Source: the human T2T-CHM13v2.0 reference genome, Homo sapiens | DNA: 64,000 nucleotides | Assembly: GCF_009914755.1 (NCBI RefSeq) | Contig: NC_060928.1 | Strand: one strand, 5' to 3' | Shown: positions 21,595 through 38,582 of the stretch, piece after piece | Position numbering within the stretch: position 1 is the first letter of the stretch | Layout: every line of letters starts with the position of its first letter | Made by a program: the position numbers and the translations under genes | Notes under the pieces: generated by a model | What the model was told of the DNA's origin: nothing | Seen by the model: only the letters and a program-made list of their open reading frames with translations | Database searches by the model: none

Positions 21595-22690
<1,096 letters not shown>

Positions 22691-23879
22691 TCAATCATGA
22701 AAAATGCCAATTTTTGAAGTACATATTAAAACCGTGAATAGGACACTTTTCCCGCTAGTACAATTTGTTTGAAACATTAATGTCTAACAGTGATGAGGGA
22801 GAAATGAAATAGATATTGGTGATTCACATGAACAGAACCTTTGAGGGAAAACTAGAAATATAAATGATCTGTCTACTGTTTATTATACTGTTCAGTGGGG
22901 ATATTTTTTCCCACTGTGTTTGCCTAATTTTACATAGCTATATTGTCAAATCTATAGCTCTTTTGGGTTATCTCATTCATGGTTTTTCTGTGATCTGAGT
23001 TTTAAAGTCTTTCTCCTGGAATTAATTTTTTTTCCATTGTTTTCCATCCCGAATCAACATCCCTGGAATTAATTTTGATATATGATATGATATATGTCTA
23101 AGTCAATTTTTTTTTTCTAATTGACAATTGGTTACTCTAGAAAATTTATTAGTAATCCTTAACTTTAAAAATTGATTTGAAATGCCTTTTTAACCTAACA
23201 GCAGGAATCTATTTCTGGGTCATTTTATTCAACCATTCATCTTGCTGCTCCTTGGTTATTACCACATTGTTTTGTTCATTGTAGTTTATTACATTGTAGT
23301 TTATTATTTATTTATTAGATTGTAGTTTATTATTTTGTATTTATATAAATACAAATTTATACAAATATTAGTTTAGTATTTATTATTTATTACATTGTAG
23401 TTTACTAGTGTGTTTTGATATCTTATAGAGCTTGTTTCATCTCATTTCTTTAGTTTCTTCTGAATTTTCTTCTATATTCTTGTCCTCTCTATTCTTCTGT
23501 ATTGGTTTTACAGATGCTTTCTTTTTTGTTGTTTGCTTTATTTTTTCCTTTGGAAACAGGGTCTCACTATTTTGCCTAGGCTGGGCTCCAACTCTCCATC
23601 CTTCCATCTCAGCCTCCTGAGGAGCTAGGATCACAGGCATGTACGACCTTGCCCAGCTACTCAGATGAGGTTAGAATTTTCTTGCCAATGTCCTATCTTC
23701 TCCCTGGGTGGGGGATGCCAGGGTGGGCTGGCCCAAGTGTTTCGGTCCCTAATGCCCTCATAGCACATATGTGTGTGTCAGACAGGCCTGCTTAGGCGGG
23801 TCACCACAACAAGAGGTTTGACGTGAGTGTGTGTAGAACCAAGGAACAAGCTCTAAAACAGGGGCTTCCAACCAGAGAG

Positions 23880-23970
23880 AAGGGATTAAACCCGCCTTAG
23901 GGTGGGACTGGGTTGATTAAATTAAGGAGATTGCAGGCATGGGTGGGGCTAAGTGGGACCTATTTAAGGC
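23880..23970 (+). promoter_or_regulatory. SLC34A2: Putative distal alternative promoter of SLC34A2: DUX4 motif, TAATCC site, KLF/SP boxes, TATA-like box
   Basis: TGATTAAATTA 23914-23924 (reverse complement TAATTTAATCA = TAAYBBAATCA); GGGATTA 23882-23888; CCCGCC and GGGTGGG boxes; TATTTAA 23961-23967. Confidence 0.65.
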
Positions 23971-23989
23971 CTCTTATCTTCCCCGGTCT

Positions 23990-24328
23990 CAGACTAGTGG
24001 CTTCCAGTTCTGACTGAAGCGGTCTCCAGCTCTGAAGCGGTCTCCAGCTCTGAAGCTATCTCCAGCTCTGAAGCGGTCTCCAGCTCTGAAGCGATCTCCA
24101 GCTCTGAAGCGGTCTCCAGCTCTGAAACGATCTCCAGCTCTGAAACAATCTCCAGCTCTGAAGCGGTCTCCAGCTCTGAAACAATCTCCAGCTCTGAAGC
24201 GGTCTCCAGCTCTGAAACAGTCTCCAGCTCTGAAGCGGTCTCCAGCTCTGAAGCGGCCTCCAGCTATGAAGCGGTCTCCAGCTTTGACTCCAGTTGTTTC
24301 CAGCTCTTCTGGACTGACTTCTTTCCAG
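23990..24328 (+). other. SLC34A2: Putative distal alternative first exon of SLC34A2 (start approximate)
   Basis: Begins about 25-30 nt after the TATA-like box and ends at donor CAG|GTAGGA (24328/24329). Confidence 0.6.
24014..24283 (+). repeat. 18-bp minisatellite (CTGAAGCGGTCTCCAGCT)x15
   Basis: 15 consecutive units with variants (CTATCT, CGATCT, AACAAT, AACAGT, GGCCTC, ATGAAG). Confidence 0.95.
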
Positions 24329-24854
24329 GTAGGAAGACCAATGCAGGGTCTGAGGGATCTGGAACCTTCACCACAGTATAACTAATTTCTTCAAGTCCTG
24401 AGTGGGCAAAGGTGGTCTCTGGGGAGATGGTGAAGGGTGGGGTATCAGAGTGTCATGTGGGGCTTGGAATGATGAAGGAAGTTGGGGTGACCAGTCAAGG
24501 AGGTCCCCATTTTCCAGCCCGGCAGGCTCTCCGTGTGTTGTTGGGAGTGGAGTAAGGGGCTAGTCCCTTTGTCCAGTGAAATGAGAGTGTGCTCGTGTGT
24601 CAATGAGCTCCCCATGGGGCCTGTTGGAGAGCTTGGGTCTCATTTAGGAGATGATGTCCACAGATTCTTGCTTAGGCTTATGAGAGGTTGGTAGAGTTGT
24701 GAATCTGGTTTGAATCCTGAGTGGACCAGAAACTTGGGCAAAATCTAAACTCCCAAGCCAGACTCCTCATCTGCAAAATGGCGATAAAATTACTGGATAA
24801 TCTAGGGTTGTTGTGAGAATTTAACAATTGAGTGTTCAGGCTTTTGACATTTAT

Positions 24855-31459: not shown

Positions 31460-31900
31460 GGCAGGGGCGGGAGAGCCCCACTTGCGGGAATCTCGTGCGG
31501 ACCGAGTCGGGGCGGGAGAGGGCGCGCACCAGCCAGGCTAGGGCGCGCGGGGCGCCGAGGGGCGCGGGGCCGTTTGGGGCCGTTCGGGCCAGTTCGCGCG
31601 GCGGGGCCCGTCGGAGCTTTTCTCTCGGCAGCCTGGCTGGCCGCGCGTCTTCTCCGCGCAGCGGGCGAAGTCGCGATGGGTTCATTAAGGCGGCAGGTAG
31701 GCAGTGCCCCGGCGGCGGCTGCGGCAGGCGGTCCTGGAATGTGCGAGGGGCGTGATGACAGCGGCCAGCCTCTTTGCGCAACACCTTCGCCATATATACC
31801 CGGGGCGCTGCGCTCCACCTGGCCGCCGCCTCCAGCCCAGCACCTGCGGAGGGAGCGCTGGTGAGTACCGCCGCCGGGGCAGGGGCGCTTCCTCGCTCTT
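31460..31900 (+). promoter_or_regulatory. SLC34A2: CpG-island main promoter of SLC34A2 with GC boxes and TATA (TATATA 31793-31798)
   Basis: Very high CpG/GC density, GGGGCGGG boxes, TATA about 25-30 nt before exon 1. Confidence 0.9.
31821..31860 (+). other. SLC34A2: SLC34A2 non-coding exon 1 (start approximate)
   Basis: Ends at strong donor CTG|GTGAGT (31860/31861); joins ACC-ATG of exon 2. Confidence 0.85.
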
Positions 31901-32434
31901 TCAAGGACTTTGATTCACTTAATTCTTGCAAATACCTCTCGGTGCTGACTTCAAGGAACTTGGCTGGCTTTGGGCCGCAGAAGTGAAAAACACAAAGCTC
32001 TCCACAATGTTCAAGTTGTTTTCTTCTTAATGTTACGGTTATTGCTTTTATTACAGCTTTTGCTGCTACACTCTTACGATCGACAGTGTTATTAATCAGC
32101 CACACTTGTGGATTCTAAAATGATCACTGTTTTGAGAGTCGTGGTTTGGAAGAGGAAAGGCCCAGGGGATAGAAATCTCCACCTAGGAATCAGGATAGCT
32201 AGGCTCTTTGTGGCTGGGTCACCAACTAGCCATGTGACAACGCTAGTCCCTGTGAGCCCCTGGGCTGCCGTCTTCCATTCTTTATAAGAAGGGGAATGCG
32301 ACATCTCAGGACCATGAAAATTCTAGGTTTGTGGTGGCTGCCTGGTGATGTGACACTGCCCCCCACCCAAGTGTGACTTCCACGTGGTACAGTGCTTGTT
32401 TGCAGTTATTTAAGGTGCCTAGGAGACAGTCTTA

Positions 32435-32534
32435 GTTTGTTTCTATTAGGGCCCGTGGCCATCAGCGAAGGGTCCGTCCTTCAGCCGTCTTGGGGAGCAA
32501 AGCCCGCAATTTATGTTTTCCAAGCCACAAATGG
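32435..32534 (+). other. SLC34A2: Putative alternative first exon 1b (start approximate)
   Basis: TATTTAA at 32407-32413 upstream; donor TGG|GTGAGC at 32534/32535. Confidence 0.55.
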
Positions 32535-38135: not shown

Positions 38136-38470
38136 CCGTTGCACCCTGCTTTTGACTGAAGGAGAGAGTCAAGACAAAAACAAGTTTACGAGATTAAAGG
38201 TGGTACATGCAGCTAACTCAACACTGTACGAGGTAGTTTGCTTTAGCGACTGGGTGAGTGTTTGAAGGGGAACCACAGAGGAAATATGGTGCTTAATATG
38301 CCACACTTAGGGGGCATAAGTGTGAAATCTTTCCCTTCCTTTTACTGCCGCCTCCGGCCGAAACCCCCACCCAGTTGATGCTTTGCAACCAATGGTTCTT
38401 CCTCTTATAGCATCTCGGTGTGCCTCCTTTCCATGACTGCTGCTTTAAGCTGTTTTCTCATCCACAGACC

Positions 38471-38582
38471 ATGGCTCCCTGGCCTGAATTGGGAGATGCC
38501 CAGCCCAACCCCGATAAGTACCTCGAAGGGGCCGCAGGTCAGCAGCCCACTGCCCCTGATAAAAGCAAAGAGACCAACAAAA
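38471..38582 (+). CDS. SLC34A2: NaPi-IIb coding exon 2 (exon starts 38468; MAPWPELGDAQ...SKETNK)
   Basis: CACAG|ACCATGG Kozak start; donor GTAAGT 38583; 112 nt. Confidence 0.97.

What the first reader, a model, noticed from the sequence alone, without database searches (positions are those of the whole stretch)
24266..24328. A variant minisatellite unit creates an ATG that splices in-frame to NaPi-IIb: predicted 22-aa N-terminal extension
Seen: the 15th 18-bp unit has ATG (24266) where the others have CTG. From it, 63 nt (21 codons, MKRSPALTPVVSSSSGLTSFQ) run to the donor CAG|GTAGGA in phase 0. Exon 2 begins ACC-ATG at 38468, so the spliced mRNA reads MKRSPALTPVVSSSSGLTSFQ-T-MAPWPELG... (712 aa). 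The ATG has G at -3. Inference: the distal-promoter transcript encodes an N-terminally extended transporter with new Ser/Thr-Pro phosphosites, which could also be a DUX4/embryo-specific neo-peptide.
Basis: partly seen in the sequence, partly recalled or inferred. Interest (0 to 1): 0.85.

Follow-up and report, generated by a model that had tools for sequence, protein, structure and literature searches.

The report
DUX4-driven SLC34A2 first exon with in-frame ATG
An already reported embryo- and DUX4-specific alternative first exon of the phosphate transporter gene SLC34A2 holds a single start codon that would add 22 residues to the protein's N-terminus, a plausible but untested and probably accidental variant.

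Summary
An 18-bp minisatellite (24014-24287, 15.2 copies) has CTG at the head of units 1-14 and ATG at unit 15 (24266). From that ATG, 63 nt run open to CAG|GTAGGA (donor 24329). Joined to exon 2 (38468) this gives a 712-codon ORF.

The exon is real and already in print, but only in supplements and a figure:
- A DUX4 ChIP peak is linked to SLC34A2 by 3118 and 3218 spliced reads in DUX4 myoblasts, against 2 and 0 in controls (Young 2013).
- A 340-bp first-exon model is one of 32 transcript 5' ends that rise from oocyte to 4-cell (Tohonen 2015). I predict 338 bp from a TATA-like box, an initiator and the donor.

ATG 24266 is the only ATG in that exon, so it would be the first AUG of the transcript. 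Its context is adequate (G at -3) and the leader is unusually unstructured.

My searches found no paper that reports the N-terminal extension. Translation from it, the exact junction and its conservation are all untested. The in-frame arrangement follows from the repeat's 18-bp period, so it is no sign of selection. Interest is moderate to low.

The parts
23914..23924 (-). DUX4-type binding motif (TAATTTAATCA on the minus strand), about 72 bp upstream of the predicted start site
   Evidence: 2 matches to TAAYYYAATCA in 64 kb, against 0.38 expected; 6 of 100 shuffles reach 2. The motif itself is recalled from Geng 2012 and was not checked in a paper. The centre of the DUX4 ChIP peak in Young 2013 Table S4 lies 55.5 bp upstream of the embryo first-exon start.
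23961..23968 (+). TATA-like box TATTTAAG
   Evidence: the only match to TAT[AT][AT]A[AT][AG] in 23900-24030. It lies 30 bp upstream of the initiator A.
23989..23995 (+). Initiator-like TCAGACT; predicted transcription start at A 23991
   Evidence: a YYANWYY match placed 30 bp after the TATA-like box. This is inferred, not mapped here.
23991..24328 (+). Predicted distal (DUX4- and cleavage-stage-specific) first exon of SLC34A2, 338 nt
   Evidence: Tohonen 2015 Supplementary Data 2 lists a 340-bp first-exon model on the + strand, 'Unannotated'. Young 2013 Table S4 gives the linking reads. The placement in the window rests on a recalled hg19 coordinate, good to about 40 bp.
24011..24013 (+). In-frame TGA that closes the frame upstream of the array
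24014..24287 (+). 18-bp minisatellite, 15.2 copies, found only at this locus in the genome
   Evidence: Tandem Repeats Finder; all 13 genome matches to two units, with up to 3 mismatches, lie inside this array; the flanks match only themselves.
24266..24328 (+). ATG of unit 15 plus 20 codons up to the donor (P0001)
   Evidence: The only ATGs in 23900-24340 are at 23939, upstream of the TATA-like box, and at 24266.
24329..24334 (+). Splice donor GTAGGA (CAG|GTAGGA), phase 0
   Evidence: it matches 7 of 9 positions of CAG|GTRAGT. The other 23 GT sites in 23991-24450 score 2-5; the 13 annotated SLC34A2 donors score 6-8.
38468..38582 (+). SLC34A2 exon 2; acceptor ...tcatccacag|ACC ATG; canonical ATG at 38471 in a strong context (A at -3, G at +4)
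   Evidence: and the RefSeq table supplied with the finding.
23560..23661 (.). Alu-monomer-like fragment just upstream of the promoter, probably the FLAM_A named in the preprint
   Evidence: 44 further matches elsewhere in the genome, all within query positions 1-102 of window 23560-24013. The FLAM_A label comes from a figure legend and was not tested.

Best explanation
Window 23991-24328 is the DUX4-activated distal first exon of SLC34A2. A DUX4 site (23914-23924) sits upstream of a CpG-poor promoter of the TATA-plus-initiator type. Transcription runs through a locus-specific 18-bp minisatellite to the only good donor, at 24329, and splices into the gene, most simply to exon 2 at 38468.

One repeat unit carries ATG instead of CTG. 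This is the only AUG in the 338-nt leader. It has G at -3 and A at +4, and it lies in phase with the canonical AUG 66 nt downstream in the mRNA. By the scanning model, a sizeable share of ribosomes should start there and make a 712-residue NaPi-IIb. Its cytosolic N-terminus would carry 22 extra residues that are basic and then rich in Ser, Thr and Pro. The remaining ribosomes would leak to the strong canonical AUG and make the normal 690-residue protein.

The in-frame arrangement is a by-product of the 18-bp period, not a sign of selection.

Shown: the sequence facts, DUX4 binding, DUX4-dependent splicing into the gene, the embryo 5' end, and surface NaPi2b after a DUX4 pulse. Inferred: the exact start site, the direct junction to exon 2, initiation at 24266, and any effect of the extension.
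For: Sequence:
- The ATG, the donor and the 712-codon ORF are as described.
- In the predicted distal exon joined to exon 2, the ATGs lie at mRNA positions 276, 342 and 367. The first AUG is therefore 24266.
- The donor scores 7 of 9 against 2-5 for the other 23 GT sites nearby.
- RNA folding of the leader (23995-24328) gives -80.4 kcal/mol against -106.6 (sd 5.1) for shuffles. All 100 shuffles fold better, so scanning should be unhindered.
- The RefSeq alternative exon 32434-32534 has no AG before it, so it cannot be an intervening exon.

Literature:
- Young 2013, PMC3836709, Table S4 (supplement passage; methods passage). DUX4 peak hg19 chr4:25649232-25649935, labelled 'Unique', linked to SLC34A2 by 3118 and 3218 spliced reads against 2 and 0.
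- Tohonen 2015, PMC4569847, Supplementary Data 2 (whole file read; definition passage). FE411831, chr4:25649639-25649978, + strand, 'Unannotated', one of 32 first-exon models that accumulate from oocyte to 4-cell.
- Yoshihara 2022, PMC9287684 (passages). [quoted passage not shown] The MX35 antibody stains the cell surface 6 h after a DUX4 pulse.
- Nanopore FSHD preprint, PMC12776069 (passages). The expressed isoform, SLC34A2-207, does not use the main promoter.
- Preprint 10.1101/2024.04.18.589901 (figure legend and passages). [quoted passage not shown]
Against: - No call shows ribosomes or peptides at 24266.
- The RefSeq table supplied with the finding lists no exon here.
- The 2013 linking reads only had to overlap the peak and the annotated gene, so the acceptor is not named.
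- Sci Adv 2025, PMC12057663 (passages), reports a DUX4-myoblast isoform of SLC34A2 with a further novel exon. At least some distal transcripts may therefore carry an extra exon that could shift the frame.
- A at +4 is not optimal and the canonical AUG has a stronger context.
- The ORF is what chance and the repeat period would give.
- Conservation and polymorphism of the ATG could not be tested.
- Placing the hg19 coordinates in the window relies on a recalled coordinate. One search failed to document a second anchor.
- I could not see how Ensembl annotates the coding sequence of SLC34A2-207.
Confidence: 0.55

Rival explanations
1. The distal exon is real but serves only as a 5' untranslated leader. 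Initiation at 24266 is minor, and the protein made in DUX4 cells and embryos is essentially the normal 690-residue NaPi-IIb. The ATG is a neutral variant of one repeat unit.
For: - The canonical AUG has the stronger context (A at -3, G at +4) against G at -3, A at +4 for 24266.
- The ORF is no more than chance plus the repeat period.
- None of the passages read from eight papers on this gene or locus mentions an extended protein.
- RefSeq lists no such coding sequence (table supplied with the finding).
Against: - It is the first AUG, it has a purine at -3, and it sits in an unstructured leader. By the scanning model such an AUG is rarely skipped by most ribosomes (established knowledge, not tested here).
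Confidence: 0.25
2. Most distal transcripts carry one or more unannotated exons between 24328 and 38468. The ATG at 24266 then opens a short upstream ORF, out of frame or terminated, that damps translation of the canonical ORF instead of extending it.
For: - Sci Adv 2025 reports an SLC34A2 isoform (PB.12232.51) with an entirely novel exon in DUX4 myoblasts.
- The Young 2013 method does not name the acceptor.
- If the intron is retained, the frame ends after 39 codons.
Against: - The only annotated exon in between (32434-32534) lacks an acceptor.
- NaPi2b protein appears at the surface within 6 h of a DUX4 pulse.
- The nanopore study assigns expression to a single annotated isoform.
Confidence: 0.12
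3. Nothing functional is here: a chance ORF in a silent intergenic minisatellite.
For: - No RefSeq exon is listed here.
- The ORF statistics are unremarkable.
Against: - Independent data sets place DUX4 binding, a 5' end and spliced reads here.
- The predicted exon length of 338 nt matches the 340-bp first-exon model.
Confidence: 0.03

Closest known systems
DUX4-bound regions used as alternative promoters and first exons of annotated genes (Young et al. 2013, PMC3836709; validated examples HEY1, PPCS, NT5C1B)
   Same: A DUX4 site upstream, a new first exon spliced into the host gene, and strong DUX4 dependence. This very locus is a row of their Table S4.
   Different: The peak is labelled 'Unique' rather than an LTR. 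Here 23670-24013 and 24284-24760 match only themselves in the genome. The paper does not discuss coding consequences for SLC34A2; there are 0 occurrences of the gene name in its main text.
RefSeq SLC34A2 5' variants (exon 31821-31860 and alternative first exon 32434-32534)
   Same: Alternative first exons that all join exon 2 at 38468.
   Different: Exon 31821-31860 has no ATG. Exon 32434-32534 has two ATGs in one frame, which form a 13-codon upstream ORF out of frame with the canonical start. Only the distal exon carries an in-frame ATG. The canonical promoter is a CpG island (observed/expected CpG 0.98); the distal one is CpG-poor (0.25) with a TATA-like box.
N-terminally extended proteoforms that arise from an alternative first exon or an upstream in-frame start (general class; PTEN-L is a recalled example of a CUG-started extension)
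   Same: An upstream in-frame start adds residues to an otherwise unchanged protein.
   Different: Translation is not shown here. The start codon lies in a variant unit of a minisatellite, and 14 in-frame CTG codons precede it.
MaLR LTR (MLT1A0) promoter, as named for this locus in preprint 10.1101/2024.04.18.589901
   Same: The preprint's figure legend says DUX4 binds the transposable elements MLT1A0 and FLAM_A in the SLC34A2 promoter region and shows a new transcript.
   Different: I could confirm only an Alu-like piece at 23560-23661. The core promoter and exon found no paralogues. The search tool may miss old, diverged LTR copies.

Membership tests
DUX4-activated alternative promoter / first exon | DUX4 recognition motif at the promoter | tested here: met
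   TAATTTAATCA at 23914-23924 on the minus strand. The motif definition is recalled. 6 of 100 shuffles give as many matches, so the motif alone is weak evidence.
DUX4-activated alternative promoter / first exon | DUX4 occupancy in vivo (ChIP-seq) | not testable with these tools
   Taken from Young 2013 Table S4, peak chr4:25649232-25649935 in hg19. The mapping to window ~23.6-24.3 kb uses a recalled hg19 coordinate.
DUX4-activated alternative promoter / first exon | DUX4-dependent spliced reads that join the region to the gene | not testable with these tools
   From the same table: 3118 and 3218 reads with DUX4 against 2 and 0 without, activation ratio 2052. The acceptor is not named.
DUX4-activated alternative promoter / first exon | A mapped 5' end at the site | not testable with these tools
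   From Tohonen 2015 Supplementary Data 2: first-exon model FE411831, 340 bp, + strand. It agrees with the 338-nt exon predicted from the TATA-like box, initiator and donor.
N-terminally extended proteoform from an upstream in-frame AUG | The AUG is upstream of the annotated start, in frame, with no stop between | tested here: met
   This holds if 24328 joins 38468 directly.
N-terminally extended proteoform from an upstream in-frame AUG | First AUG of the transcript, in a usable context | tested here: met
   It is the only ATG between the TATA-like box and the donor, with G at -3 and A at +4.
N-terminally extended proteoform from an upstream in-frame AUG | Evidence of initiation (ribosome footprints) or of the peptide | not testable with these tools
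   No data were reachable. The public Ribo-seq series GSE178760 is named in PMC12057663. An 18-residue string of the extension occurs in 0 papers.
LTR (MLT1A0)-derived promoter | Sequence similarity of the promoter or exon to other copies of the LTR family | tested here: inconclusive
   Window 23850-24340, 23670-24013 and 24284-24760 each match only themselves in the genome. The search is word-based and may miss copies 25-30% diverged. Young 2013 calls the peak 'Unique'; the preprint names MLT1A0.
Coding minisatellite / VNTR | Tandem array with a period divisible by 3 that is open in the translated frame | tested here: met
   Period 18, with 105 open codons from 24014 to the donor.
Coding minisatellite / VNTR | Copy number varies between individuals, and the array itself is translated | not testable with these tools
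   Only one human genome is held. The ATG lies in the last full unit, so the array is upstream of the predicted start unless a CUG codon is used.

The most novel reading that the evidence does not exclude
The C-to-A change in unit 15 is a recent, human- or ape-specific change that created a start codon. It gives cleavage-stage embryos, FSHD muscle, DUX4-positive tumours and HSV-1-infected cells their own NaPi-IIb proteoform, whose proline-directed Ser/Thr sites change trafficking or turnover. In addition, some ribosomes start at the 14 in-frame CUG codons (13 of them in the context GCUCUGA). That would add a hexapeptide-repeat extension of up to 84 more residues, whose length would vary with the minisatellite allele.
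Probability: 0.07. Interest if true: 0.7.

Novelty: new member of a known kind. Interest (0 to 1): 0.35.

Why it matters
SLC34A2/NaPi2b is used as a protein biomarker of FSHD and as a surface marker to sort DUX4-induced, 8-cell-like human cells.

If the DUX4-driven transcript encodes a 22-residue N-terminal tag, an isoform-specific antibody or a targeted mass-spectrometry assay could tell DUX4-driven NaPi2b from ordinary epithelial NaPi2b. That would sharpen the biomarker.

The extension would also be a candidate DUX4-specific peptide in tumours and in herpesvirus-infected cells.

The question can be answered from data that already exist: Ribo-seq series GSE178760 and the long-read sets.

If translation does not start there, the finding is only a note that the distal leader holds one harmless in-frame ATG.

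Tried and rejected
The structure of PB.12232.51 therefore stays unknown.
- Paper searches that gave nothing useful:
  - Ensembl transcript ids: only the nanopore preprint.
  - 'alternative first exon' with SLC34A2 and DUX4: 0 papers.
  - SLC34A2 with DUX4 and 'ribosome profiling': 1 paper, which does not treat this gene's start codon.
  - SLC34A2 with 'N-terminal extension': 1 paper, an unrelated CD74 review, seen as a listing only.
  - The VNTR search was badly framed; none of the 20 listed papers holds SLC34A2.
  - A search for a recalled hg19 fusion-breakpoint number, meant as a second coordinate anchor: 13 papers, and the 10 listed were all thyroid-cancer clinical papers with no link to SLC34A2. 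The SplitFusion paper gives no coordinates.
- Protein search with the last 40 residues of the stop-to-donor frame against longer proteins: 477 candidates, none scored at E of 10 or below. The 21-residue peptide alone was too short. The library is not known to hold primate proteins, so this says little.
- Rejected: the RefSeq exon 32434-32534 as an intervening exon, because it has no acceptor.
- Rejected: a minisatellite family found elsewhere in the genome. All 13 matches lie in this array.

Full report
**1. The observation**

The window holds an 18-bp tandem array at 24014-24287: 15.2 copies, 89% matches, consensus CTGAAGCGGTCTCCAGCT. Read in register from 24014, units 1-14 start with CTG, unit 15 (24266) starts with ATG and unit 16 with TTG.

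The frame of that ATG is closed by TGA at 24011-24013. It is then open for 105 codons to the sequence CAG|GTAGGA, whose GT is at 24329. From the ATG to the donor there are 21 codons (P0001). G lies at -3 and A at +4.

Exon 2 begins ACC ATG at 38468. A script that joined 24266-24328 to the RefSeq coding exons gave 712 codons with one stop at the end.

**2. Is the exon real?**

It is, and it has been in print for more than ten years, though only in supplements and a figure.

- Young et al. [quoted passage not shown] I saw the supplement passage and the methods passage. The table lists a peak at hg19 chr4:25649232-25649935, labelled 'Unique'. It is linked to SLC34A2 by 3118 and 3218 spliced reads in two DUX4-expressing myoblast lines, against 2 and 0 in controls.
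- Tohonen et al. 2015 (PMC4569847), Supplementary Data 2, lists FE411831 at chr4:25649639-25649978, + strand, 'Unannotated'. I read the whole file. It is one of 32 transcript far-5'-ends that accumulate from oocyte to 4-cell. The methods define these as sample-specific first exons.
- Yoshihara et al. 2022 (PMC9287684, passages) treat SLC34A2 as one of those minor genome-activation genes. They say it is rarely expressed in hESCs. They detect NaPi2b on the cell surface with antibody MX35 6 h after a DUX4 pulse.
- A nanopore study of FSHD cells (PMC12776069, passages) finds that the one expressed isoform, Ensembl SLC34A2-207, does not use the main promoter.

**3. Placing those coordinates in the window**

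I recall, from no call, that the hg19 RefSeq start of SLC34A2 is near chr4:25,657,435. That puts the ChIP peak at about window 23618-24321 and the first-exon model at about 24025-24364. The uncertainty is some tens of bases. A search meant to document a second anchor failed.

Three facts do not depend on that recall.

- The window has only two DUX4-type motifs, at 22687 and 23914.
- The first-exon model starts 55.5 bp downstream of the ChIP peak centre. The predicted start site lies 72 bp downstream of the 23914 motif.
- The first-exon model is 340 bp long. The exon I predict from sequence is 338 nt.

**4. Anatomy of the promoter and exon (inferred from sequence)**

- The DUX4 motif lies at 23914-23924 on the minus strand.
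- The only TATA-like match in 23900-24030 (TATTTAAG) is at 23961.
- An initiator match (TCAGACT) has its A at 23991, exactly 30 bp after the TATA-like box.
- The region is CpG-poor: observed/expected CpG is 0.25, against 0.98 for the canonical CpG-island promoter.
- Among 24 GT sites in 23991-24450, the donor at 24329 matches 7 of 9 consensus positions. The others match 2-5, and the 13 annotated SLC34A2 donors match 6-8.
- The only ATGs in 23900-24340 are at 23939, upstream of the TATA-like box, and at 24266. The latter would therefore be the first AUG of the transcript, at about +276.
- The leader folds far worse than its shuffles: -80.4 against -106.6 kcal/mol, z +5.2, and all 100 shuffles fold better. 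A direct repeat without self-complementarity should not hinder scanning.
- The RefSeq alternative exon 32434-32534 has no AG in front of it, so it is a first exon and cannot intervene.

**5. Origin of the sequence**

- The array is unique to this locus. All 13 genome matches to two units, with up to 3 mismatches, fall inside it.
- Windows 23850-24340, 23670-24013 and 24284-24760 each match only themselves.
- Window 23560-23661 is an Alu-monomer-like piece with many copies elsewhere in the genome. This fits the FLAM_A named in the preprint.
- The preprint's MLT1A0 label for the promoter region could be neither confirmed nor excluded, because the search may miss old, diverged LTR copies. Young 2013 called the peak 'Unique'.

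**6. Mechanism**

By the scanning model (established knowledge), a first AUG with a purine at -3 in an open leader captures a large share of ribosomes. The canonical AUG lies 66 nt further on in a stronger context (A at -3, G at +4) and would take what leaks past.

I therefore expect a mixture of a 712-residue and the 690-residue NaPi-IIb from the distal transcript. The extension has two basic residues and then 11 Ser, Thr or Pro among its 22 residues. It has two Ser/Thr-Pro dipeptides, and I noticed no long hydrophobic stretch in it by eye.

The N-terminus of SLC34 transporters is cytosolic (recalled). On that basis the extension should not disturb insertion into the membrane. This fits the surface staining, which does not tell the two forms apart.

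None of this is shown. No footprint, peptide or named junction was available to me.

**7. Evidence against, and chance**

- Sci Adv 2025 (PMC12057663, passages) describes a DUX4-myoblast isoform of SLC34A2 with a further novel exon. Some distal transcripts may therefore differ.
- The RefSeq table supplied with the finding has no exon here.
- The in-frame ORF is not statistically notable. 54% of shuffles of the 60 nt stay open, which gives about 18% once phase is included.
- 27 of the 37 near-ATG trinucleotides in the exon lie in this very frame. A start codon born in the array would usually be in frame. This argues for an accident of the 18-bp period rather than selection.
- Fixation in humans and presence in apes cannot be tested with the genomes held.

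**8. Novelty**

The distal promoter, its exon and its dependence on DUX4, the embryo and HSV-1 are known. My searches did not find the predicted N-terminal extension in print.

- An 18-residue string of the extension: 0 papers.
- SLC34A2 with 'N-terminal extension': 1 unrelated paper.
- SLC34A2 with DUX4 and 'ribosome profiling': 1 paper, which says nothing on this start.
- SLC34A2 with 'alternative promoter': 12 papers. Of the 11 listed, I opened three, and none discusses a coding change.

The library lacks most subscription journals and does not search supplements. I could not see the Ensembl or UniProt records for SLC34A2-207, which may already carry such a coding sequence.

The finding is a new, unverified member of a common kind: an alternative first exon with an upstream in-frame AUG.

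**9. Verdict**

- Observation: confirmed.
- Interpretation: partly supported.
- Distal exon real: about 0.9.
- Direct junction to exon 2 in most molecules: about 0.75.
- Meaningful initiation at 24266: about 0.55 overall.
- Interest: 0.35. Its practical value is for isoform-specific detection of a DUX4 biomarker, and existing data can answer the question cheaply. It is not surprising in kind.

Noticed in passing
window 22687-22697 (+): A second DUX4-type motif (TAATTCAATCA) lies 1.2 kb upstream of the first, just after an Alu tail and A-rich stretch at 22500-22610. These are the only two matches in 64 kb.
   Followed up: no
window 32434-32534 joined to 38468: The RefSeq alternative first exon carries two ATGs in one frame, at mRNA positions 80 and 98. 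They open a 13-codon upstream ORF that runs across the splice junction and over the canonical ATG, out of frame. It could damp translation of transcript variants 2 and 3.
   Followed up: partly
window 23995-24328: The minisatellite leader is much less structured than its shuffles: z +5.16, and 100 of 100 shuffles fold better. This is a by-product of a direct repeat with no self-complementarity.
   Followed up: partly
window 24014-24265: Fourteen in-frame CTG codons precede the ATG, 13 of them in the context CCAGCTCTGA (G at -3). Near-cognate initiation would add hexapeptide repeats to the extension.
   Followed up: no
window 23277-23344: An AT-rich tandem repeat (period 15, 4.9 copies; also read as period 26, 2.0 copies) lies in a long AT-rich stretch upstream of the distal promoter.
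   Followed up: no
window 23560-23661: An Alu-monomer-like fragment, apparently in antisense orientation, abuts the unique promoter sequence. One search found 44 further matches elsewhere in the genome, all within this part of the query.
   Followed up: partly
window 24014-24287: Unit variants are mostly G-to-A changes at or next to the unit's CpG (GCGG to GCGA, ACGA, ACAA or ACAG). This looks like CpG decay in a region that is methylated in the germ line.
   Followed up: no
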